Shown piece by piece: positions 5,215-14,114 of a DNA stretch of 64,000 nt (position 1 is the first letter of the stretch; every line of letters starts with the position of its first letter). Where the stretch lies: NCBI GenBank assembly GCA_000092065.1, contig CP000586.1. One strand, given 5' to 3'. Origin of the DNA: Ostreococcus lucimarinus (taxonomy: Eukaryota). A model generated the notes under the pieces. The model was not told the origin of the DNA. It did no database searches and saw only the letters and a program-made list of their open reading frames with translations. The translations under genes and the position numbers were made by a program.

Positions 5215-5817
5215 GTGTTCGCGCGAATGTTACAGTCCGACGTTACGGTTCGCCGCGCGGCCGCGCGACCTCGTCCCGTCCCTCGTCGTCTCGTCGCACA
5301 CGCGCGCGCGATGGCGTCCGCGTCCGCGCGCGCGTCGCACATGCGTCGAAACTCCTCCCTCCAGGACGTTCGCGCCTTCGTCAAGCACTTTCCCGAGCAT
5401 CTGAGCTGGCGCGCGCAGCGCGAGTCGTTCGCGCACGAGGCGATGCAGTACGCGCTGTGGATCCCGTTCGCGATCGGGGCGTACGCGATGCACCTGCGCA
5501 CGCTTTCGTACTTGTTCGCGACGTGGTTCGTACTGGGTGAGATGATGCTGGTGTACACGCACGAGGCGCACCGGAAAGTCCTTCGCGGACTGCGCTGGTG
5601 GCACATCGCGATCGGCATCGGCGCGGGCGTGCTGTACCGAGGCGCGCCGCTGGTGGGGACGTTCGGACGGTTCGTCGTGGATTACGTGTTTTGGGGAGTG
5701 ATAGCCATGGCGTGCGTGTTTCCGTTGGTGCCGAAGACGTTTCGCGCGGACGTGCCGGATTTGGTGTACATGTTGGGATTCTTGCGGAAACCGACGGAGG
5801 GGCGCAAGAGCGCGTAG
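5215..5817 (+). CDS. Hypothetical multi-pass membrane protein with an Arg-rich N-terminal presequence.
   Basis: The ORF encodes 3-4 predicted TM helices (WIPFAIGAYAMHL, WWHIAIGIGAGVLY, VFWGVIAMACVFPLV). The start could be the internal Met MASASARAS. TAG at 5815-5817. Confidence 0.35.
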   Translation: MFARMLQSDVTVRRAAARPRPVPRRLVAHARAMASASARASHMRRNSSLQDVRAFVKHFPEHLSWRAQRESFAHEAMQYALWIPFAIGAYAMHLRTLSYLFATWFVLGEMMLVYTHEAHRKVLRGLRWWHIAIGIGAGVLYRGAPLVGTFGRFVVDYVFWGVIAMACVFPLVPKTFRADVPDLVYMLGFLRKPTEGRKSA

Positions 5818-5875
5818 ACGACGCGCCGTCGAACAATTAATTGTCTAGCCTATGAAATGTAGTACCACAATGTCG

Positions 5876-8617
5876 CTATGCGCCGGCGAGAAGCTCTTCG
5901 ACGCGCTTTCTTTTCAACTTTTCCGTGATTTCATCCAACAGAAACCCATCCATGAGTGCGTTGACGTCGGAAATCGTCCCCTCGACGCGATGGTCCTTGA
6001 CTCGACCTTGCGCGAAGTTGTACGTTCGAATCCGTTCGCTTCGATCACCCGTACCGATCAACGAGCTTCGCAGCTCGCTTCGCTCTTTCGCCATCTTCTC
6101 GCGCTCTAAGTCGTACAATCGCGCCTTGAGCACGCTGAACGCCTTGGCTTTGTTCTTGTGCTGGCTTCGCTCGTCTTGGATCACGACTTGGATCCCCGTC
6201 GGCGCGTGCGTGAGGCGAACCGCGGAGTTGGTGGTATTGACGTGCTGACCACCAGCGCCGCTGGCGCGCATGGTGTCGATGCGAACATCCTCCTCTTTGA
6301 TGTCCATCTCCACCTCTTCCGCATGCGGAAGCACCGCGATGGACGCTGTGCTCGTGTGCACTCTGCCTTGCGTCTCCGTCTCGGGCACGCGCTGCACGCG
6401 ATGGACGCCGGATTCAAACTTCAACCTCCCAAATACGCCTTTGCCTAGAATTTCAGCGCTCGCTTCTCGAACGCCCTTACCATCGGTCTCACTCACGTTC
6501 AACGTATCGAACCTCCAACCGCTCTTTCTCGCGTGTAAGGCATACATGCGGAACAGCTCGGCGGCGAAGAGCGCGGCTTCGTCGCCGCCCGCGCCGGCGC
6601 GAACCTCTAAAATCGCGCCCCGATCGTCTGCGTCGTCGTGAGGCAAGAAAAGCAGCTGCAGCGCTAGCTCTTGATCGGGTAAATCGATGTCAACGGCGCG
6701 CAGCTCCTCGCGCGCGAGCTCGGCAAGCTCTTTAGAATCACCCCCGCTCGACGCGTCTCGCACCAATTCCTCGAGAGACGCCTTTTCGGCGCGAAGCTTT
6801 TTGACGACTTCATACTGCTCCGCGATGGGTTCAATTCGGCTGAGTTCCTTGTTTGCTTCGACAACGCGATCGATATCGACGCCTTGGCGCGAGATGAGCG
6901 CGATCAATTCCTCTCGTCGCCGCAGCGCGGCTTCGCCTCTTTCCTCCAAGGCGTCCGTCGAAGACGTCGAAGACGAGTACGACCTCGTTCCGGCCATCGC
7001 GCGCTCGAGCGTCGATCCGACGCGCACGAGCCGAGCTTCTCGGAATTTTGGCGCGATCATTTGCATACCAATGGGTAAGCCGCTCGCCCTCGAGCGCCCA
7101 GCGGGCATGGACATCGCGGGTAAACCCGCGAGCGATGCGGGCACCGTCATGACGTCGGCGGCGTACGTTTGCGCCGGACTCAGTGCCTCGACGTCGGAAA
7201 GTTTTGGTGCCGTCGACACGCTGGATGGTGTGAGCAACACATCTACGCCACCGCCTTCGCCGCCGAACACGTTTGTAAAGTCGTCCGACACCAATCTTCG
7301 AACCTTTTGCGCCTTTTCAAAGTATTCCGCCGCGCGCGCGCTGCTCAGGGCAAACGCGCCGACTGTGACGCGGCGACGAACCTCGTCGCCGAAACCCAAG
7401 CTTCGCGCCTTCGCGATGGCGCTTTGAAACTCTTCAGCAAGATATTCTTCTCGCGAAAGGTCACGCGTGAGGTCACCGTAGCGCATACCGTCGTAACGTG
7501 CGAGATTACTCGACGCCTCGGCCGGGGCGAGGACGTAGTAACACGGCAACGCCGCCTCGGTGTGCGGCATGTTGACGCGCACAATTTCCGCCCCGAGCGC
7601 CTCCATCGCGCGCACCATTTCGTTCCACGCGTCATACACTTCTTGAGTCAATTCGCTCACCGCGTATTCCTCTGGAACGCCCACGCGCAAGCCCTTCAAA
7701 GATGCTGCTTTTGGCGTCGTCTCGTCGACGAATTCGAGCGCCGCCGCGTCTAAATCCTCGCACCGCGCCACCGTCGTCGCGTCCAGGGCGTCCTCGCCCT
7801 GAATCGCCGCGAGCACGACCCCAGCATCACTCACCGTCCGCGCTAAAACCCCCACCGTGTCCAACGAGCTACAATACGACACGAGACCGAACCTACTCAC
7901 CCTGCCGTACGTCGGCTTCAATCCGACCGCGCCGCAATACGCCGCGGGCAATCGCACGCTCCCCCCCGTATCGCTTCCGAGCGCGTAAAACGCCGAACCG
8001 TTCACAACCGCCGCCGCGGACCCCCCGCTCGACCCCCCGCTCGACCTTTCGCCGTCCGACGACGTCGGATTCAGCGTCGTCTGCCCCGACGTCCGCGTGT
8101 GACTCCCCATGCCGAACTCGTCCATGTTCGTCTTCCCAATCAACACCCCCCCCAGCGCGCGCAACCGCGCGATCGCCGTCGCCTCGATCGGCGATTCGTA
8201 CCCCTCCAAAATCCTCGATCCCGCGCTCGTCGTCCCGACGTTCGCGCACAGATTATCCTTCGCCGCGAACGGGACGCCGTCGAGCGCGCTCGCTCGCCGC
8301 CTCGCCTCCCCATCCGCCTCGCCTTCCGTCTCGCCCCGCTCTCGCCGCGCGTCCGACGCGCGCGCGTCCGCCAGCGCGCGTCTCGCGTGCGCGTCTCGCG
8401 ACGCGGCGCTCCCGACGAACGCGCGCGACGTGAGCGCGTCCGCGTCGACGCGACGCGCGCAGTGCGAGAGCAGGTCGACCGCGGTCAGCGCGCGCGCGTC
8501 GAGCGCGCGCGCGGCTTCGGCGACGGTGCGCGGCCACGACGCCGCGGACGTGGACGCGGTCGCGTTCGAGCGCGCGCGCGCGACGCCGCGCGCGGCGCGT
8601 CGCGCGTGGACGCGCAT
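5876..8617 (-). CDS. gatA-prfA fusion: Glutamyl-tRNA(Gln) amidotransferase subunit A (GatA, amidase signature) fused in frame to a class-I peptide chain release factor of RF1 type. A Ser/Thr-rich linker of about 15 aa joins the two. The protein is probably organelle-targeted.
   Basis: GatA is supported by FAAKDN, GGSSGGSAAAV, GSDTGGSVRLPAAYCG and a complete C-terminus (GLPIGMQMIAPKF...LVRVGSTLERA). RF1 is supported by a PET tripeptide (RF1-type PxT, not SPF), GGQ (SGAGGQHVNTT) and RTYNF motifs. No stop codon occurs between the two. The start is taken at Met 217 of the listed ORF (ATG 8617-8615), giving a ~45-aa Arg/Ala/Ser presequence. An internal Met at 6997-6995 would give a stand-alone RF1 with no targeting peptide. 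Confidence 0.6.
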   Translation of the reverse strand: MRVHARRAARGVARARSNATASTSAASWPRTVAEAARALDARALTAVDLLSHCARRVDADALTSRAFVGSAASRDAHARRALADARASDARRERGETEGEADGEARRRASALDGVPFAAKDNLCANVGTTSAGSRILEGYESPIEATAIARLRALGGVLIGKTNMDEFGMGSHTRTSGQTTLNPTSSDGERSSGGSSGGSAAAVVNGSAFYALGSDTGGSVRLPAAYCGAVGLKPTYGRVSRFGLVSYCSSLDTVGVLARTVSDAGVVLAAIQGEDALDATTVARCEDLDAAALEFVDETTPKAASLKGLRVGVPEEYAVSELTQEVYDAWNEMVRAMEALGAEIVRVNMPHTEAALPCYYVLAPAEASSNLARYDGMRYGDLTRDLSREEYLAEEFQSAIAKARSLGFGDEVRRRVTVGAFALSSARAAEYFEKAQKVRRLVSDDFTNVFGGEGGGVDVLLTPSSVSTAPKLSDVEALSPAQTYAADVMTVPASLAGLPAMSMPAGRSRASGLPIGMQMIAPKFREARLVRVGSTLERAMAGTRSYSSSTSSTDALEERGEAALRRREELIALISRQGVDIDRVVEANKELSRIEPIAEQYEVVKKLRAEKASLEELVRDASSGGDSKELAELAREELRAVDIDLPDQELALQLLFLPHDDADDRGAILEVRAGAGGDEAALFAAELFRMYALHARKSGWRFDTLNVSETDGKGVREASAEILGKGVFGRLKFESGVHRVQRVPETETQGRVHTSTASIAVLPHAEEVEMDIKEEDVRIDTMRASGAGGQHVNTTNSAVRLTHAPTGIQVVIQDERSQHKNKAKAFSVLKARLYDLEREKMAKERSELRSSLIGTGDRSERIRTYNFAQGRVKDHRVEGTISDVNALMDGFLLDEITEKLKRKRVEELLAGA

Positions 8618-8651: not shown

Positions 8652-9365
8652 ATGACGCTCGGCGTCGCGCGCGCCGCGGCGCCGTCGCGCGCGCGCGCCG
8701 CGGTCGCGCGCGGTCGTCGCGCGGTCGTCGCCGCGCGTCGTCGCTCGGCCGTCGCGCGCGCGATCGTCGCGCGTCGCGCGCGCGAGGTCGTCGAAGTCGA
8801 CGCCGAAGTCGACGGCGGGCGAACGAACGCCGCGCGAACGACCGTGGCGCTCGCGCTGACGCTCGCGCTGACGCTCGCGACGCCGCACGCGGCGCGCGCG
8901 AGGGAGTTCTTCCCGCAGTCGCCGCCCGACGACCCGATCGAGCCGTTCAGCGTGTTCGGGACGGTGGAGAAGGCGTTCAGCGTCGCGGTGCTCGACGAGA
9001 GTGGGTCGAAAATCGTGGCGAGAAAACGCGGCATGAGCGTGAAGTCGTGCGTGAACGTGGTGCCGGCGTCGAGACAGGGGCCGAGAGGACCGCCCGAGGC
9101 GCTGAGACCGTCGGCGTGCGCGGAGGCGGAGGCGCTGGGGGAGATTCGGGAGCAGCGGGACATGTTGAAGGCGTGCGCGCCGGCGTGCAAGGCGTCGTGC
9201 TCGAGGGCGATCGCGGAGTACGACGAGGGACAGAGGAAGACGACGGGATTTGGGTTAGATGCCAAGGCAAAGGAGCGAGTGTTGAAAGCGTGCGTCGTGA
9301 CGTGCGGGAAGGATTGCGAAAAGGCGGGAAAGTCGTACGATTACATCATACCGTTTCGATTTTGA
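8652..9365 (+). CDS. Hypothetical Cys-rich protein. The N-terminus resembles a bipartite transit peptide, suggesting thylakoid-lumen targeting.
   Basis: ATG at 8652. The presequence is Arg/Ala-rich and is followed by a hydrophobic ALALTLALTLATPHAARA|REFF segment. The mature part is Lys/Glu-rich with CAPACKASC and CVVTCGKDC motifs. The overlapping antisense frame (the GatA ORF N-terminal extension) is Ser/Thr/Asn-rich and non-protein-like. Confidence 0.4.
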   Translation: MTLGVARAAAPSRARAAVARGRRAVVAARRRSAVARAIVARRAREVVEVDAEVDGGRTNAARTTVALALTLALTLATPHAARAREFFPQSPPDDPIEPFSVFGTVEKAFSVAVLDESGSKIVARKRGMSVKSCVNVVPASRQGPRGPPEALRPSACAEAEALGEIREQRDMLKACAPACKASCSRAIAEYDEGQRKTTGFGLDAKAKERVLKACVVTCGKDCEKAGKSYDYIIPFRF

Positions 9366-9421: not shown

Positions 9422-12345
9422 CTAAGGTTCGCGAGACGATTCGCTGGACGCTGAAAACTCCGCGAGCGCGGCAGCGTACGCCTCTTTCGCCGTCTTGGCA
9501 TCGCTCTCGTACTTGGCTTTGCGTTCTGGATCGAGCGAGGCCCACCGCTCGCCGAGCGCCTTGGCGACTTCGCCGACTTTAAAGGTTGGATTTTCCGCCT
9601 TGACTGACGCGCGTTCGTCCGCCGAGAACGCGAAAAAGGCCGTGAGCGGTTTTTTCATTCCTGGAACTTCCACCTTGGGCTTCGGCGCCTTCTTTGCCTT
9701 TGGATATTTGGCTTCCTTCTTTGCCTCTGGCTCCTTCTTCGGCTTTGGTTCCTTCGCCTTCTTCGGCTCCTTTTTCGCCTTGGTCTTTTTCGAAGCGTAT
9801 CGACCGCGCGTGCGCGGTGGGCGCTCGGCTTTTTTGCGCAACAATTCGACAGCTTCGTCGATATCGACGTTTTCGACCGCACCGACGCGCTTCAATACGG
9901 TTTTCCCGATGGATGCTCTGAGAACTTCGCCGGCGACTTCGGACGCGACGTACCAACCAAATGGGCCAATGTTGAGCGAAACGGGCGCCTGCGTCACCGG
10001 ATGCACACCAAGCACTTTGGGGTATTCAAACATCCCGATGGCTTCCGCGAGAGTGATCTTGTTGACGTCCTTGCCGATGTTTGCCACTCCGACGCGACGA
10101 GGTGCAGGCGGTTTCTTCGGTTTCTTTGCCTTCTTCCCATCCTCTGCCGGCGTCGCCGCCGCGAGCTCTTGAACGCCGAGTTGTAAATATGGGCCATAAG
10201 GACCAAGTCGGAGAGAAATTTCTTTTCCGGTCGCTGGATCAACGCCAAGCACCTTGGGATACATCACTGCGTCGGGATCTTCGACGGTGGCGACGAAATC
10301 TGGATCATCCGTGTCGCTCACGATGGCGCCTCGAATCGGATGCAACGGGTGCGTGAAGCCGCATTCAGGGTAGCGACTGCACCCAATGAATCCACCAGCT
10401 TTTGATGGCTTTAAACCAAGTCTGCCAATTTTACAGCTCGGGCATCTCCGTGCTTCGCTCACGACGTCGTCGGAATCGCTTAATTCGGCGACTTGATCCG
10501 GGTTGATGTGCACGTGGCCGTCATACGTCGCCTCGCCGAAGAGATGCTGCCCGAGCTTCTCATCGAGAGCGTCGATGACTTCGCTCACGCGCAGCTCCGA
10601 AAGCGACGATATTTTATCCCTAAACGGCGTCCACCACTCCTCGAGTAACGGTTTCCATTGTACTTGTTCGCTCGTGATGTCGTCAAGCTTGTGTTCCAAA
10701 TCCGCCGTGAAGCCGTAATCGACGTACGTCTCAAAGTAATTCGTGAGAAACGCAGAGACTAGACGACCGCGAGTCGTGGGAACGAGTGCGGCACCTTGCT
10801 TTGCGACGTACTCACGCTGCGCGAGCACCTTTAAAATCGGTGCGTACGTGCTCGGTCGCCCGATGCCTCGTTCTTCGAGCGCCTTGACGATGGAACCATC
10901 CGTGTAGCGAGGCGGCGGCGACGTTTTGTGCTCTGTCGCCTCGCACCCGAGACTCTCACCGTCAGTTTTCACAGACAAACCTTCGCCTTCACCAAGAATA
11001 GGTAACCACGCGTCGTCTGAAGGTGGCGCAGCTTCGGGTCTGGACGTTCGATACGCCGCAAGGAATCCCGGAAACTTGAGCCTGTGTCCGTTCGCCTTGA
11101 GCTTTAAGTCGTTCTCTGCGGAGGCAATTTCAGCCGCTATGCGATCGGTAAGCGCAGGTGACATTTGTGACGCCATAGTGCGCGCCCAAATCAACGCATA
11201 AAGTCTCGCTTCATCGCTGCCTGGTCCTATTTGCCGCGCAACTTGCGCGGGAAGCCGTCCAGCCTTGGTAGGTCGAATCGCTTCGTGCGCCTCTTGCGCA
11301 TTCTTTTGCTTCTTCTTAAAGTATCTGGGCGATTCAGGCACGTACTCATCACCAAAAAGCTCACCAGCGGTCGTACGCAAGCTTTCAATCGCATGTGGGG
11401 CGACGTACGTGCCATCTGTGCGCATGTACGTAATCAAACCTTCGCCCGTGCCCGCGCCCTCGTACAGTCGTTGCGCCGCCGACATCGTCCTCGACGCACC
11501 GAAACCGAGCTGCTTGTTCGCTTCCTGCTGCATCGTCGACGTCGTGAACGGTGGTCCACTCGTACGCTTGGCTTCGCTGTGCTTCACCTCCACCACCCGC
11601 AGCGTATCGCATTCTCGCACGCGCTTGGCGTACGCCTCGGCTTCGTCGTTCGAAGCGATGGTAAACTTTCCAAGCTTAGCGCCATCGACGTGCGTCAAAG
11701 CGGCGTCAAACGTAGAGCCGTCTTTTGAACTTAAACTCGCCTTCACCGTCCAATACGGCTCGCTCACGAACGCCTCCACCTCTTCCTCTCTTTCGCACAC
11801 TAATCGCAGCGCCACGCTCTGCACGCGACCCGCGGACAGGCTCACGCTCGACGGCAACTTACGCCACAGTAGCCCAGAGAGCGTGAATCCGAATAGATAA
11901 TCCAGCGCGCGTCGCGCCATGTACGCATCAACCATCGGAACGTTAATGTCCCGCGGAGAACCCACCGCGTCGAGCACCGCTGTTTTCGTAATCTCCCCAA
12001 ACGTCACGCGCTTGACGTCCAAGTCGTCGCGCAACAATTTCTTCTCCCGAAGCACCTCGAGCAAGTGCCACGAGATAGCCTCACCCTCTCGGTCTGGATC
12101 CGTCGCGAGCAGCAGCACATCCGTCTTCTTCAACGCCTCCGTGATGTCTCGCATCGCCGCCTTTTGCCTCGACGTCGACGTCCACGTCATCGCGAACGAT
12201 TCCTCCGGCCGCACGCTTCCCTGTTTATTCACCAGATCACGCACGTGCCCGTAGCTCGCCAGCACTTTCGCGTTCGCACCCAAATACTTCTCGATCGTCT
12301 TCGCCTTGGCCGGAGACTCGACGATCATGAGCGTCCGTTTCCCGT

Positions 12346-12385
<40 letters not shown>

Positions 12386-12604
12386 GCCGCTCGCGACCGC
12401 GCGCGCCGTCGCCGCCGTCTTCGTCGTCTCGCCCCATCCACCCTCGCGTCCTCCCCACGCGATCCCGCGCGTCGCGCGCGCGCCGACGCTCGCGACGAGC
12501 CGTCGCACGCCGCCCGCGCGCGCGCGCGCCGTCCACATCGCCGCCGACGACTGCGAATTCCCAACCGACTCCGCGCGCGACGCCGCGGCGCCACTCGCGC
12601 GCAT
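9422..12604 (-). CDS. TOP1 (topA-type): Bacterial-type DNA topoisomerase I (type IA, TopA-like). It has C-terminal Zn ribbons and Topo_C repeats, followed by a Lys-rich tail and an HMG box. It is probably organellar.
   Basis: The Toprim region TLMIVESPAKAKTIEKYLG...SYGHVRDL is present, with the active-site region downstream. A C4 ribbon reads CPSCKIGRLGLKPS...CSRYPECGF. The YPKVLGV...LGPYGPY repeat occurs twice. The tail KKTKAKKEPKKAKEPKPKKEPEAKKEAKYPKAKKAPKPK is followed by an HMG box (KKPLTAFFAFSADERASVKAENP...WASLDPERKAKYE). The start is uncertain: Met candidates lie at 12604 or 12538, and the ORF runs on to 12820. A T12 tract precedes the Toprim region. Confidence 0.7.
12348..12383. repeat. 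(GTC)12 microsatellite. It codes T12 in the topoisomerase N-terminal region and V13 in the antisense ORF.
   Basis: Perfect trinucleotide run read directly. Confidence 0.9.
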
Positions 12605-12764
12605 CAACCGCGCCCGCGGACGCGCGCCGCGCGCGGCGACCTCCCCGCGCGTCGCCGCCGCGCGCGGCGCCGCTCGTCCGCGCGGTGCGCGCGCGCGAAT
12701 GCGGCGAACGTCGCGACGCGCGTCGATTCGCGACTCGCCCGAACATCGCGACGCGCGCGCCGCC

Positions 12765-14114
12765 ATGTTCGACCGCGCGAGCGCGCGCGCGCGGCGCGCG
12801 AAGAAGTACGGCCAGCCCATCTACGCCGGCGCGTGGCTGGACGATCGCACCGCGCTCCTCGCCGGGGGCGGCGGGAAGAAGTCGAGCGGGATTCCGAATC
12901 GAATCTTGATCGCGTCGTGCGAGCGTGGCCCGCACGGAACGACGCTGGCGGACGCCGAGGCGTGGACGCACACGGACGAAGACGCGCCGCAGCGGCTGGC
13001 GGTGCACCCGGGGCGCGAACACGTGGTGTGCGCGTTCGGGGGGACGCTGGGGGTGTTTCGAGCGCGGCGAGGCGCGAACGACGGCGCGGACGAGGGCGCG
13101 TCGTCGTCGGGAACGAACGGGGAGGCGCGGTGGACGATCGAATCGTGCGCGAGCGCGTTGGGACTGCCGAATCGCGTGCACGTGACGCCGGATGAGCGGG
13201 AGATTAAGTGCGCGGCGTTCGACGCGGAGGGCGCGCGGTTGGCGCTGGGATTGGAGAGCGGGGAGGTAAAGATTCTAGCGTGGCCGTCGTTGGAGGTGGA
13301 GAAAGAGCTCGGGGCGCACGAGAAAGGGGCGGTGACCGATATCGCCTGGGCGCCCGACGGCGATGGGCTGTTGACGACGTCGGCGGAGAACGCGACGGCG
13401 AGTAACATCGGTCGCGGCGCCGCGGTGTGGAGCGTCGAGCGCGGCGAACGCGTGCTGACGTTGTTCGACGAGTCCATCGTGAAGAAGAGCGGGGTGCGGA
13501 ACGTGGTGTTTCGCGGCGCGGCGTACGGCCGAGGCACGAACGCGTCGACGAGCGTGGCGTGGACTGGGGTGAATCTAGACGGCGAAGGTTGGGTGGTGAA
13601 GTGGGACGTCGCCACGTGGAAAGTCATCAGCAAGGCGCGAGTGTTCAAAAGCGAGCCCATCTCCGGGTTCGCGGTGAACGCGCAGGGTACGCTCATCGCC
13701 GTCGGAAGCTCCGAAGGCGAAGTAAAAGTCGTGGACGCGCAAAAGTTTACGCTCATTAAACCGGTGAAGAAGGCGCACATGATTTTCGTCACCACCATGG
13801 CGTGGAATCCCAAAGGAAACGTCGTCCTCTCGGGCTCCGCCGACGCCAGCGCTTTGGCGACGAAGATCGAAAAGCAGTCATGGACCTTGCGTTTGGTGCT
13901 CTGGTTCACCGTGTTCGTGATGTTGATCGTCGGCTGGATAACGTTGCTGTCGACAATCTTCCCCGACCCGCTCGCGCGCGCGCTCGAAGACGGCGATTAC
14001 GCCCGCGCCGCGCAAGCCGTCGCCGACTATTTCAGCGAGACCAAGATCCCGGCCGCGACGTTAGAAACGATCGAGGACGCCGTCGCCGGCGTCTCCGCCC
14101 GCGACGAGCTTTAG
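12765..14114 (+). CDS. SEC12: Sec12/PREB-like guanine-nucleotide exchange factor for Sar1. It has a WD40 propeller and a C-terminal TM anchor.
   Basis: ATG at 12765 is in frame. The K-loop-like LLAGGGGKKSSGIPNRILIA is present. WD repeats are followed by a TM segment (WTLRLVLWFTVFVMLIVGWITLL) and a short lumenal tail. The listed ORF start at 12306 is antisense to the topoisomerase. Confidence 0.6.
   Translation: MFDRASARARRAKKYGQPIYAGAWLDDRTALLAGGGGKKSSGIPNRILIASCERGPHGTTLADAEAWTHTDEDAPQRLAVHPGREHVVCAFGGTLGVFRARRGANDGADEGASSSGTNGEARWTIESCASALGLPNRVHVTPDEREIKCAAFDAEGARLALGLESGEVKILAWPSLEVEKELGAHEKGAVTDIAWAPDGDGLLTTSAENATASNIGRGAAVWSVERGERVLTLFDESIVKKSGVRNVVFRGAAYGRGTNASTSVAWTGVNLDGEGWVVKWDVATWKVISKARVFKSEPISGFAVNAQGTLIAVGSSEGEVKVVDAQKFTLIKPVKKAHMIFVTTMAWNPKGNVVLSGSADASALATKIEKQSWTLRLVLWFTVFVMLIVGWITLLSTIFPDPLARALEDGDYARAAQAVADYFSETKIPAATLETIEDAVAGVSARDEL

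What the first reader, a model, noticed from the sequence alone, without database searches (positions are those of the whole stretch)
5876..8617. Stop-free ORF joining a complete GatA amidotransferase to a complete RF1-type release factor
GatA homology, covering the amidase signature through the conserved C-terminus ...LVRVGSTLERA, runs directly into a 14-residue Ser/Thr-rich segment (MAGTRSYSSSTSST). Full-length RF1 homology follows, from the N-terminal helical domain through the PET tripeptide, the GGQ motif and the C-terminus. No stop codon lies between the two in this frame. The only internal Met at the junction (6997-6995) would give an RF1 with essentially no presequence. Eukaryotic RF1 homologues are all organellar and need a presequence. 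Both parts act in organellar translation, so a genuine fusion sharing one transit peptide is biologically plausible. I know of no description of a GatA-RF1 fusion.
Basis: partly seen in the sequence, partly recalled or inferred. Interest (0 to 1): 0.65.

Follow-up and report, generated by a model that had tools for sequence, protein, structure and literature searches.

The report
Conserved GatA–mitochondrial RF1 fusion gene
In the tiny marine green algae Ostreococcus and Bathycoccus, two unrelated organelle translation proteins (the GatA amidotransferase subunit and a mitochondrial-type release factor RF1) are encoded as one continuous gene, and a conserved peptidase-type motif at the joint suggests the product is imported once and then cut in two.

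Summary
Window 5876-8617 (minus strand) is one stop-free 913-codon ORF. It holds a complete GatA, a 14-residue Ser/Thr-rich linker and a complete RF1. The window is Ostreococcus lucimarinus. It is not an assembly error. At least eight lineages, down to about 45-50% identity (O. tauri, uncultured Ostreococcus-like lineages, low-GC lineages I take to be Bathycoccus), keep the same open frame in the same gene neighbourhood. Most have no Met at the joint, so RF1 cannot be started separately there. A search of 1.84 billion representative proteins found the fusion only in this clade. Micromonas commoda has a free-standing RF1 elsewhere in its genome. The RF1 half is of alphaproteobacterial, mitochondrial type. 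The variable linker keeps one motif, R-x-Y-(S/A)-(S/T). This is the consensus for mitochondrial processing peptidase (MPP) plus ICP55, and yeast Arg5,6 is cut internally at RSY. In these proteins the motif occurs almost only in the N-terminal presequence and at the joint. My best reading is a composite organellar precursor that is cleaved after import; the cleavage is inferred, not shown. O. tauri's fused model is already in public databases. The O. lucimarinus reference splits the ORF into two models. I found no paper describing the fusion. It is a new member of a known kind, of moderate interest.

The parts
5876..8617 (-). Complete coding sequence: 913 codons plus the stop at 5876-5878. It encodes presequence, GatA, linker and RF1.
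   Evidence: It translates to the same sequence as metagenome protein P0001 (100% identity, 100% coverage), a translation confirmed on its contig L001. The same start is used by NCBI model XP_001418458.1.
8534..8617 (-). Probable N-terminal targeting presequence, about residues 1-28 (MRVHARRAARGVARARSNATASTSAASW). It is Arg/Ala/Ser/Thr-rich with no acidic residues. The boundary is approximate.
   Evidence: It precedes the start of GatA homology at residue ~32. AlphaFold pLDDT is below 50 for residues 1-26. It is the top-scoring presequence-like segment in a crude charge/hydroxyl profile. Orthologues have variable Arg/Ser-rich N-termini, some carrying R-x-[YL]-[AS]-[ST].
6998..8533 (-). GatA module, residues ~29-540. 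The Pfam Amidase domain covers nt 7028-8317.
   Evidence: Pfam PF01425 at 4e-115. NCBIfam gatA TIGR00132 at 462 bits. The best PDB matches are GatA chains of GatCAB (3al0, 2gi3, 3h0l, 2df4, 4wj3).
7958..8266 (-). Amidase-signature catalytic motifs: AAKDN (Lys, nt 8252-8266), GGSSGGS (nt 8018-8038) and GSDTGGS (nt 7958-7978).
   Evidence: These columns are invariant or nearly invariant in the 16-sequence alignment A1.
6956..6997 (-). Linker, residues 541-554 (MAGTRSYSSSTSST). It is predicted disordered, and its length and sequence vary among orthologues.
   Evidence: AlphaFold pLDDT is below 50 for residues 543-554, between helix 527-542 (GatA C-terminus) and helix 556-576 (RF1 N-terminus).
6977..6985 (-). 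R545-S546-Y547, followed by SSS: the candidate internal processing site. By the MPP R-2 rule the cut falls before Tyr, and ICP55 then removes the Tyr.
   Evidence: Tyr547 is the only nearly invariant linker residue. The pattern [RK]-x-(x)-Y-[SATH]-[ST] is present in all 26 distinct junction sequences. The motif R-x-[FYIL]-[SAT]-[ST] occurs almost only in the presequence and at the junction in 16 fused proteins. The consensus is taken from PMC8847149 and PMC8734313.
6995..6997 (-). Met541 codon at the junction. The O. lucimarinus reference RF1 model (XP_001418457.1/A4RYV2, 373 aa) starts here. It is not conserved in orthologues.
   Evidence: P0377 equals residues 541-913; no Met near the junction in O. 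tauri or in the P0004, P0005, P0007, P0008, P0009, P0011 and P0013 lineages.
5879..6955 (-). RF1 module, residues 555-913. The PCRF domain covers nt 6338-6895 and the RF-1 domain nt 5987-6319. It is of mitochondrial (alphaproteobacterial) type.
   Evidence: Pfam. NCBIfam RF1 NF001859 at 426 bits, above its cut-off. PDB RF1 matches. The best 80 prokaryotic relatives are nearly all Alphaproteobacteria and none is cyanobacterial.
6377..6385 (-). P-E-T tripeptide (the RF1-type PxT stop-codon recognition motif), within a canonical loop VQRVPETETQGRVHTSTAS.
6245..6253 (-). GGQ peptidyl-tRNA hydrolysis motif.
   Evidence: The columns are nearly invariant in A1.

Best explanation
This is a genuine, evolutionarily fixed gene fusion in Ostreococcus and its low-GC, probably Bathycoccus, relatives. 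One nuclear gene encodes an N-terminal organellar presequence, the GatA subunit of the tRNA-dependent amidotransferase GatCAB, a short disordered Ser/Thr-rich linker, and a mitochondrial-type class I release factor (mtRF1a). Shown: the continuous ORF, its completeness, its conservation and synteny across deep divergence, and the lack of an independent start for RF1 in most lineages. RF1 therefore has to be translated as part of the fused polypeptide and has to rely on the single N-terminal presequence for import. Inferred: after import into the mitochondrial matrix, the precursor is cut at the conserved R-x-Y|(S/A)-(S/T) site in the linker. The likely enzymes are the mitochondrial processing peptidase (cut after R-x) and then ICP55 (removal of the Tyr). 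This would release free GatA, which assembles with GatB and GatC, and free RF1, which works on the mitoribosome. The same mechanism has been demonstrated for yeast Arg5,6 and Atp25. The site is probably the surviving cleavage site of the presequence RF1 had when it was a separate gene. The fused gene appears to be the only close GatA in Ostreococcus, and plant GatCAB is dual-targeted, so the precursor may also enter the plastid; this is not tested. My separate confidences are: fused ORF real, about 0.97; translated as one polypeptide, about 0.9; cleaved internally, about 0.6; by MPP/ICP55, about 0.5. The overall confidence given here (0.6) is for the full statement including internal cleavage.
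For: (1) One ORF with two complete modules.

(2) Sixteen 90%-identity clusters carry Amidase+PCRF+RF-1, from 100% down to 45% identity. They form at least eight lineages below 85% identity. There are 26 distinct junction sequences, all in frame.

(3) The orthologous loci share the order topoisomerase IA-HMG, small antisense gene, fusion gene. This holds in contigs of 42%, 60% and 63% GC.

(4) An exhaustive HMMER search of 1.84 billion representatives finds only three fused representatives, all in this clade. The next best score is a single-domain hit.

(5) There is no conserved Met at the joint. The O. tauri reference models are fused.

(6) M. commoda has a free-standing RF1, 60% identical, in a different neighbourhood with its own N-terminal extension. 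M. pusilla-like RF1s carry a presequence.

(7) The RF1 half has alphaproteobacterial affinity, which makes it mtRF1a in the classification of PMC3472500.

(8) The linker is predicted disordered, between two helices.

(9) The Tyr preceded by Arg/Lys is conserved in an otherwise variable linker. The motif R-x-[FYIL]-[SAT]-[ST] is found almost exclusively in the presequence and at the junction.

(10) This motif is the published plant MPP/ICP55 consensus RX(F/Y/I/L)|(S/A)(S/T) (PMC8847149). The proven internal MPP site of yeast Arg5,6 is RSY (PMC8734313).
Against: - There is no transcript, proteomic or N-terminome evidence for either the fused precursor or the cleaved products. The short contigs I inspected could not be assigned to RNA or DNA.
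- In a few lineages the spacing is off-consensus. SRASY and RRASY put Arg at -3 from the Tyr, P0016 has RKMFY, and the P0004 and P0005 lineages match only through an upstream RLF|AS.
- I could not run TargetP or MitoFates. My presequence-likeness profile is crude.
- The AlphaFold model is only moderate, with mean pLDDT 63 and a 16-sequence alignment.
- If the precursor must also serve plastids, a mitochondrial peptidase site would not explain processing there.
- In the NJ tree the fused RF1s are not recovered as one clade (25% bootstrap). A single origin therefore rests on synteny and junction architecture, not on the tree.
Confidence: 0.6

Rival explanations
1. It is a stable bifunctional protein. 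The fused polypeptide is imported and stays in one piece, so GatA (within GatCAB) is permanently tethered to RF1. The conserved linker motif would then be a relic or serve another role.
For: The fusion has been kept for a long time. The linker is short and flexible and lies between terminal helices of both modules, so a tether is sterically conceivable. Nothing measured here shows cleavage.
Against: There is no obvious functional link between amidotransferase activity and termination. The only conserved feature of the linker is a textbook MPP/ICP55 site, and the same motif recurs in the N-terminal presequence. The best-studied mitochondrial composite precursors, yeast Arg5,6 and Atp25, are cut internally by MPP. 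The other described ones (Etp1, Rsm22-Cox11, SPAC22A12.08c, rice RPS14) carry predicted MPP motifs at their junctions (PMC8734313, PMC5063612). A ~55-kDa GatA plus GatB and GatC attached to RF1 domain 1 would be a large load on a factor that must enter the ribosomal A site; this last point is my inference.
Confidence: 0.25
2. They are two independently expressed genes, as in the O. lucimarinus reference annotation. GatA would end without its own stop only apparently. RF1 would be made from an internal transcript starting at Met541, with essentially no presequence.
For: O. lucimarinus has an ATG at 6995-6997, and NCBI/JGI modelled RF1 from it (XP_001418457.1). Three other lineages have a Met within a few residues of the Tyr.
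Against: GatA has no stop codon in any lineage, and the reference GatA model is flagged 'partial'. O. tauri and at least seven other lineages have no Met near the junction, and the next Met lies deep inside RF1 domain 1. A product starting at Met541 would have only six residues before the conserved Tyr (MAGTRS-Y) and no targeting signal. There is no intergenic space for a promoter.
Confidence: 0.07
3. The precursor is plastid-targeted and is processed there by the stromal processing peptidase or another plastid protease, not in mitochondria.
For: Plastids need GatCAB for Gln-tRNAGln, and plant GatCAB is dual-targeted (Pujol et al. 2008, cited in PMC4027206). No second close GatA from Ostreococcus appeared in the top lists. 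UniProt's automatic name for the O. tauri protein is 'chloroplastic/mitochondrial'. Short Arg/Ser/Ala-rich N-termini are ambiguous between the two organelles.
Against: The RF1 half is of alphaproteobacterial/mitochondrial type, not cyanobacterial/plastid type. PMC3472500 reports a separate pRF1 as ubiquitous in plastid-bearing species. The junction motif is the mitochondrial R-x-Y|S type. Dual targeting is compatible with the main explanation; exclusive plastid targeting is not.
Confidence: 0.05
4. It is an artefact: a lost stop codon, a frameshift or a mis-assembly in this one genome.
For: None was found.
Against: The same ORF occurs in dozens of independent metagenome and genome assemblies from different projects and in deeply diverged species. 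Every fetched locus translates to the fused protein.
Confidence: 0.01

Closest known systems
Yeast Arg5,6 composite mitochondrial precursor (Friedl et al. 2020, PMC8734313)
   Same: Two complete enzymes sit in one ORF behind a single N-terminal presequence. The internal site lies in a presequence-like segment at the domain junction. The proven internal MPP site is R-S-Y (the R-2 rule, with Icp55 predicted to trim the Tyr), which is the same tripeptide as in O. lucimarinus.
   Different: Arg5 and Arg6 act in consecutive steps of one pathway, form a complex and derive from an operon. GatA and RF1 are not known partners. Cleavage is demonstrated for Arg5,6 and only inferred here. Arg5,6 is fungal and this fusion is green-algal.
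Yeast Atp25 composite precursor, Rsf + M domain (Woellhaf et al. 2016, PMC5063612)
   Same: It is a composite precursor whose halves are functionally unrelated, and one half is a mitoribosome-binding translation factor. It is cut by MPP at internal sites.
   Different: The proteins differ (a ribosome silencing factor and an mRNA stabiliser). It is cut three times. It is experimentally shown.
Other described composite mitochondrial precursors: S. pombe Rsm22-Cox11, Etp1, SPAC22A12.08c; rice RPS14 (listed in PMC8734313)
   Same: They are lineage-restricted fusions of mitochondrial proteins with predicted MPP motifs at the junction. Rice RPS14 shows that the phenomenon occurs in the green lineage.
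   Different: The partners differ. None joins an aminoacyl-tRNA amidotransferase subunit to a release factor, and none is reported from green algae in the papers I read.
O. tauri proteins XP_003079853.2 / A0A090N3M0 and OUS48467.1 / A0A1Y5IIK4
   Same: They are direct orthologues, about 76% identical, already modelled as a single fused protein in public databases.
   Different: They carry only automatic names ('Peptide chain release factor'; 'Glutamyl-tRNA(Gln) amidotransferase subunit A, chloroplastic/mitochondrial'). I found no discussion of the fusion or of its processing. The 858-aa model lacks the presequence.
Free-standing mtRF1a and GatA of other eukaryotes (for example Micromonas commoda RF1 P0286; plant dual-targeted GatCAB)
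   Same: Catalytic and recognition motifs are the same (PxT, GGQ, amidase signature), and so are the inferred functions.
   Different: Elsewhere they are encoded by separate genes, each with its own presequence.

Membership tests
GatA (subunit A of tRNA-dependent amidotransferase GatCAB; amidase-signature family) | Amidase-signature domain over the full length | tested here: met
   Pfam PF01425 at 4e-115 covers profile positions 39-444 of 445. PDB GatA chains are matched almost end to end.
GatA (subunit A of tRNA-dependent amidotransferase GatCAB; amidase-signature family) | Specifically GatA rather than another amidase | tested here: inconclusive
   NCBIfam equivalog TIGR00132 gatA is by far the best hit (462 bits against 240 for the next amidase family). 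It falls just below the curated 481-bit cut-off, which was set for prokaryotes. All best PDB hits are GatA. The best database homologues are named GatA.
GatA (subunit A of tRNA-dependent amidotransferase GatCAB; amidase-signature family) | Lys / cis-Ser / Ser catalytic motifs (KDN, GGSSGGS, GSDTGGS) | tested here: met
   The motifs are present at residues 118-122, 194-200 and 214-220 and conserved in all orthologues.
GatA (subunit A of tRNA-dependent amidotransferase GatCAB; amidase-signature family) | Assembles with GatB and GatC and transamidates Glu-tRNAGln | not testable with these tools
   This needs biochemistry. GatB and GatC are not in this window.
Class I release factor RF1, mitochondrial type (mtRF1a) | PCRF and RF-1 domains over the full length | tested here: met
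   Pfam PF03462 at 5e-55 and PF00472 at 6e-42. E. coli RF1 residues 11-347 are matched.
Class I release factor RF1, mitochondrial type (mtRF1a) | RF1 rather than RF2: PxT motif and RF1 equivalog score | tested here: met
   PET lies in a canonical loop VQRVPETETQGRVHTS. NF001859 RF1 scores 426 bits, above its 400-bit cut-off; prfB scores 265, below its 370-bit cut-off.
Class I release factor RF1, mitochondrial type (mtRF1a) | GGQ catalytic motif | tested here: met
   GGQ is at residues 789-791 and nearly invariant.
Class I release factor RF1, mitochondrial type (mtRF1a) | Alphaproteobacterial rather than cyanobacterial ancestry (the criterion of Duarte et al. 2012, PMC3472500) | tested here: met
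   The best 80 prokaryotic loci are almost all Alphaproteobacteria (Rickettsiales, Rhodospirillaceae, Stellaceae, Magnetospirillum, Azospirillum) and include no cyanobacterium. In the NJ tree all the eukaryotic RF1s sampled (fused and free-standing) group together in 72% of bootstraps, within a group that also holds the sampled Alphaproteobacteria. No cyanobacterial or plastid-type RF1 was included in the tree.
Class I release factor RF1, mitochondrial type (mtRF1a) | Mitochondrial localisation | not testable with these tools
   No targeting predictor or experimental data were available.
Composite (tandem) mitochondrial precursor processed internally by MPP | Two complete, otherwise free-standing proteins in one ORF behind one N-terminal presequence | tested here: met
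   Free-standing homologues exist in Micromonas and other eukaryotes.
Composite (tandem) mitochondrial precursor processed internally by MPP | MPP recognition motif (Arg at -2 with an aromatic at +1, giving the R-x-[FYL]|[SA] pattern after ICP55) at the junction, in a presequence-like segment | tested here: met
   RSY|SS in O. lucimarinus, RTY|TT in O. tauri, and RSY, RGY, RMY or RLY elsewhere. A few lineages are off-register. The junction ranks among the four most presequence-like 15-residue windows in 12 of the 13 full-length orthologues. The consensus is from PMC8734313 and PMC8847149.
Composite (tandem) mitochondrial precursor processed internally by MPP | Actual cleavage into two polypeptides after import | not testable with these tools
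   This needs immunoblots, N-terminomics or in vitro MPP assays.

The most novel reading that the evidence does not exclude
The fusion is not just a shared import ticket. The polypeptide stays intact, or is only partly cleaved, and physically couples the GatCAB amidotransferase to terminating mitoribosomes. Alternatively, the fused RF1 has acquired a new role linked to an unexplained observation: Ostreococcus and Bathycoccus mitochondria use UGA stop codons without having an mtRF2a, whereas Micromonas does neither (Duarte et al. 2012, PMC3472500). That is the same clade split as fused versus unfused RF1.
Probability: 0.1. Interest if true: 0.75.

Novelty: new member of a known kind. Interest (0 to 1): 0.45.

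Why it matters
If the reading is right, this would be a clear composite organellar precursor from green algae. It would also be one of the few that join two translation factors. It would extend the Arg5,6/Atp25 principle, in which MPP acts as an internal maturase, to a globally abundant phytoplankton lineage known for extreme genome compaction.

It is directly testable, because O. tauri is genetically tractable.

It corrects the O. lucimarinus reference annotation, which splits one gene into a 'partial' GatA and an RF1 with no presequence.

It gives a clean shared derived character for the Ostreococcus/Bathycoccus clade.

It also flags that surveys of organellar release factors and aminoacyl-tRNA amidotransferases in these algae should treat the two as one gene. 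It does not change any general principle.

Tried and rejected
- **Naming the other fused lineages.** Three cluster look-ups named only O. lucimarinus and O. tauri. The 42%-GC lineages are called Bathycoccus-like on composition and low-complexity inserts only. The 60%-GC lineages (P0008-P0012) group with Ostreococcus in the RF1 tree but remain unnamed.
- **Transcript evidence from contig shapes**. L001 spans two convergent genes. L106 is almost exactly the CDS. L103-105 are multi-gene. None could be assigned to RNA or DNA, so I draw no conclusion from them.
- **RF1 phylogeny**. The first script timed out. The NJ tree with 200 bootstraps gives three solid groups but does not resolve their order (fused monophyly 25%). 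I therefore do not use it to argue for a single origin.
- **Micromonas GatA.** A profile search found free-standing 630-790-aa GatAs on 70%-GC Tara contigs. They are probably Mamiellaceae but unnamed. No NCBI-named Micromonas GatA appeared.
- **Altered stop-codon specificity of the fused RF1.** The decoding loop and GGQ region match those of the free-standing and bacterial RF1s. Only three fused-specific columns exist, and none is in the PxT recognition loop or the GGQ motif. I rejected this as unsupported.
- **Supplementary tables of Duarte et al. 2012** are not held.
- **Structure searches** were not run, because sequence matches to solved GatA and RF1 structures were already unambiguous.


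Full report
**What is there**

On the minus strand of the window, an ORF runs from a far-upstream TTG at 9265 to a stop at 5876-5878. The biologically sensible start is the ATG at 8617, which gives 913 residues. The stretch upstream of it is antisense to a small divergent gene. The NCBI model for the first half starts at the same Met.

- Pfam finds an Amidase domain, then a PCRF domain, then an RF-1 domain.
- Against solved structures, residues 32-542 align with almost the whole of bacterial GatA chains. Residues 563-904 align with E. coli RF1 residues 11-347.
- NCBIfam calls the halves gatA (TIGR00132, 462 bits, a little under the 481-bit prokaryotic cut-off but nearly twice the next amidase family) and RF1 (NF001859, 426 bits, above its cut-off; RF2 far lower).
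- The catalytic motifs of both halves are intact: KDN, GGSSGGS, GSDTGGS, PET and GGQ.
- Between the halves lie 14 residues, MAGTRSYSSSTSST (nt 6956-6997), with no stop. The other two frames do contain stops here.

**Where the window comes from, and how it is annotated**

A 100%-identical cluster contains XP_001418458.1 of Ostreococcus lucimarinus CCE9901. This is a 539-aa 'predicted protein, partial' that ends at ...VGSTLER. A second cluster contains XP_001418457.1/A4RYV2 of the same genome. It has 373 aa and is exactly Met541 to the end. The reference annotation therefore cut this single ORF into a GatA model without a stop and an RF1 model starting at the junction Met.

In O. tauri the orthologue is annotated as one protein: XP_003079853.2/CEF98353.1/A0A090N3M0 (858 aa) and OUS48467.1/A0A1Y5IIK4 (899 aa). 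The fused architecture is thus already present in public databases under automatic names.

Full-text searches found no paper that mentions it. I searched for the fusion, for the species with both protein names, and for the accession numbers. The survey of organellar release factors by Duarte et al. (PMC3472500) includes Ostreococcus, Micromonas and Bathycoccus. Its main text contains none of the words 'fusion', 'fused' or 'amidotransferase'.

**Is the fusion real?**

Yes.

- A search of 5.8 billion proteins returned 16 clusters with Amidase+PCRF+RF-1, from 100% down to 45% identity. Their alignment is colinear through the junction. They fall into at least eight lineages below 85% identity.
- From all cluster members I extracted 26 distinct junction sequences.
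- The contigs that carry them come from many independent projects (Tara, other ENA metagenomes, JGI, Logan, an NCBI MAG). In every fetched locus the called gene translates to the fused protein.
- Gene order is conserved: a bacterial-type topoisomerase IA with a C-terminal HMG box, a small gene on the opposite strand, then the fusion gene. This is the same as in the window (topoisomerase at 9422-12820). It holds in loci of 63%, 60% and 42% GC. The low-GC lineages have Asn/Thr-rich inserts. I take them to be Bathycoccus, but that name is an inference.
- An exhaustive HMMER scan of 1.84 billion 50%-identity representatives found only three fused representatives, all of this clade. The next best hit is single-domain (450 bits against 726 or more).

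A sequencing or assembly artefact is excluded.

**Can RF1 be made on its own?**

In O. lucimarinus there is a Met at the joint, but it is not conserved. O. tauri and at least seven other lineages have none within reach, and the next Met is deep inside RF1 domain 1. GatA never has its own stop. A product starting at Met541 would have six residues in front of the conserved Tyr and no targeting signal. The parsimonious reading is that RF1 is always translated as the C-terminal part of the fused polypeptide.

**Relatives outside the clade**

Micromonas commoda encodes a free-standing RF1 (P0286, 60% identical to the RF1 half). It sits in an unrelated neighbourhood, between a cNMP-binding protein and cation ATPases. 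An in-frame upstream extension begins MALRRAFGAAARS.... M. pusilla-like homologues carry an obvious presequence, MRRALATIAADAARRARGSFASTS....

A profile of the GatA halves retrieves free-standing GatAs of 630-790 aa on very GC-rich marine eukaryote contigs. They are probably Mamiellaceae but unnamed. It also retrieves free-standing GatAs from Chlorokybus, Pyramimonas and others.

The RF1 half is of mitochondrial type. Its best non-algal hits are Alphaproteobacteria at 50-60% identity. Among the best 80 loci from 185,579 prokaryotic species there is no cyanobacterium. This corresponds to mtRF1a in Duarte et al.'s scheme. That paper also reports a separate plastid pRF1 as ubiquitous in plastid-bearing species.

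A neighbour-joining tree recovers three solid groups: Ostreococcus-like fused (100%), low-GC fused (100%) and free-standing Mamiellaceae-like (84% alone; 100% with one further free-standing eukaryotic RF1). The three group together at 81%. The tree does not resolve their order, and fused monophyly gets only 25%. A single origin of the fusion therefore rests on shared synteny and junction architecture.

**The linker and the likely mechanism**

The linker varies in length (about 10-30 residues) and in sequence. One feature is kept throughout: a Tyr preceded by Arg or Lys one to three positions upstream and followed by Ser/Ala/Thr-rich sequence.

| Lineage | Junction motif |
|---|---|
| O. lucimarinus | TRSY-SSS |
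| O. tauri | RRTY-TTK |
| Other Ostreococcus-like | RRSY-STS, ARGY-STT, KRGY-ATV, ARSY-STS |
| Low-GC (Bathycoccus-like) | RRMY-STS, RRSY-HST, RKMFY-STS |
| Off-register | SRASY-STS, RRASY-STA |
| P0004 and P0005 lineages | RRLF-AS, upstream of the conserved Tyr (P0004 also has SRASY) |

Tyr547 is the only nearly invariant linker column.

This is the published signature of two-step mitochondrial presequence removal. MPP cuts two residues after an Arg, in front of an aromatic residue. ICP55 then removes that residue. The plant consensus is RX(F/Y/I/L)|(S/A)(S/T) (PMC8847149).

The experimentally proven internal MPP site that splits the yeast Arg5,6 precursor is RSY (PMC8734313).

Searching 16 fused proteins of about 900 residues for R-x-[FYIL]-[SAT]-[ST] gives 22 hits. 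Six lie in the N-terminal presequence, fifteen lie at or next to the junction, and one lies elsewhere.

A crude presequence-likeness profile ranks the junction among the top four 15-residue windows in nearly all orthologues. AlphaFold2 gives only a moderate model (mean pLDDT 63). Its low-confidence segments include residues 1-26 and 543-554: the presumed presequence, and the linker between the last GatA helix and the first RF1 helix.

After a cut at this site, both products would have termini equivalent to those of free-standing GatA and RF1.

My best explanation is therefore a composite organellar precursor. There is one presequence and one import event. Internal processing at the linker, most likely by MPP and ICP55, then releases separate GatA and mtRF1a. 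The site is plausibly the retained cleavage site of the presequence RF1 had before the fusion.

The steps from 'imported' onwards are inferred.

**Open points**

No transcript or protein evidence was obtainable here.

Plastids also need GatCAB, and in plants the enzyme is dual-targeted (Pujol et al. 2008, cited in PMC4027206). No second close GatA from Ostreococcus appeared in my lists. The precursor may therefore be dual-targeted, which raises the question of what happens to the RF1 half in the plastid.

A stable bifunctional protein cannot be excluded; I give it about 0.25.

Gene fusions have been noted as a general feature of the highly compacted Ostreococcus genomes (PMC2850359). A neutral origin by loss of a stop and spacer is therefore plausible.

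**A coincidence noted but not supported**

Duarte et al. point out that Ostreococcus and Bathycoccus mitochondria use UGA stops although mtRF2a is absent. Micromonas mitochondria do not use UGA. This is the same split as fused versus unfused RF1.

The decoding elements of the fused RF1 (PxT loop, GR[IV]HTS, GGQ) are canonical and identical in type to those of free-standing RF1s. I therefore see no evidence for a link.

**Verdict**

The feature is a real gene fusion restricted to this clade. It works most probably like the known composite mitochondrial precursors. It is a new member of that kind rather than a new kind.

The architecture is already visible in O. tauri database entries but, as far as I could find, is undescribed in the literature. 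Interest is moderate.

Noticed in passing
window 5876-8617 (-), split at 6995-6998: The O. lucimarinus reference annotation splits this single ORF into XP_001418458.1 (GatA, 539 aa, 'partial', no stop) and XP_001418457.1/A4RYV2 (RF1, 373 aa, starting at junction Met541). The O. tauri orthologue is annotated as one protein. The O. lucimarinus models look wrong.
   Followed up: yes
window 9422-12820 (-): A bacterial-type topoisomerase IA (Toprim, Topoisom_bac, Zn ribbon, C-terminal repeats) is fused to a C-terminal HMG box. The same architecture sits next to the GatA-RF1 gene in every orthologous locus, including the 42%-GC ones. It is possibly an organellar topoisomerase with a eukaryotic DNA-binding add-on.
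   Followed up: partly
window ~8652-9365 (+): A small gene runs divergently from the fusion gene. By analogy with locus L103 the two start codons are only about 35 nt apart. It has no Pfam hit. The N-terminus looks like a transit peptide followed by a hydrophobic stretch (ALTLALTLATPHAARA), and the C-terminus is Cys-rich. A gene of similar size holds the same position in all relatives.
   Followed up: partly
window 5215-5817 (+): A convergent 200-aa ORF with hydrophobic stretches and no Pfam hit. Its stop is 58 nt from the stop of the fusion gene. A similarly sized gene on the opposite strand sits at this position in the orthologous loci.
   Followed up: no
L007 ~5640-6000 (Micromonas commoda CP001576.1): The NCBI model of M. 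commoda RF1 (366 aa, starts MTPALERR...) has an open in-frame upstream extension containing MALRRAFGAAARSVASS..., which looks like a presequence. The model is probably truncated at the N-terminus.
   Followed up: partly
RF1 half, window 5879-6955 (-), and the literature: Duarte et al. 2012 report that Ostreococcus and Bathycoccus mitochondria use UGA stop codons without an mtRF2a, while Micromonas mitochondria do not use UGA. This is the same clade split as fused versus free-standing RF1. The decoding loop of the fused RF1 is canonical, so nothing here links the two facts.
   Followed up: partly
L103, L104, L105 (Logan contigs from three sequencing runs): Three independent contigs all begin at the same nucleotide inside the 3' end of the topoisomerase gene, 910 nt upstream of the fusion gene. 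This suggests a recurrent assembly break there, from a repeat or a polymorphism.
   Followed up: no
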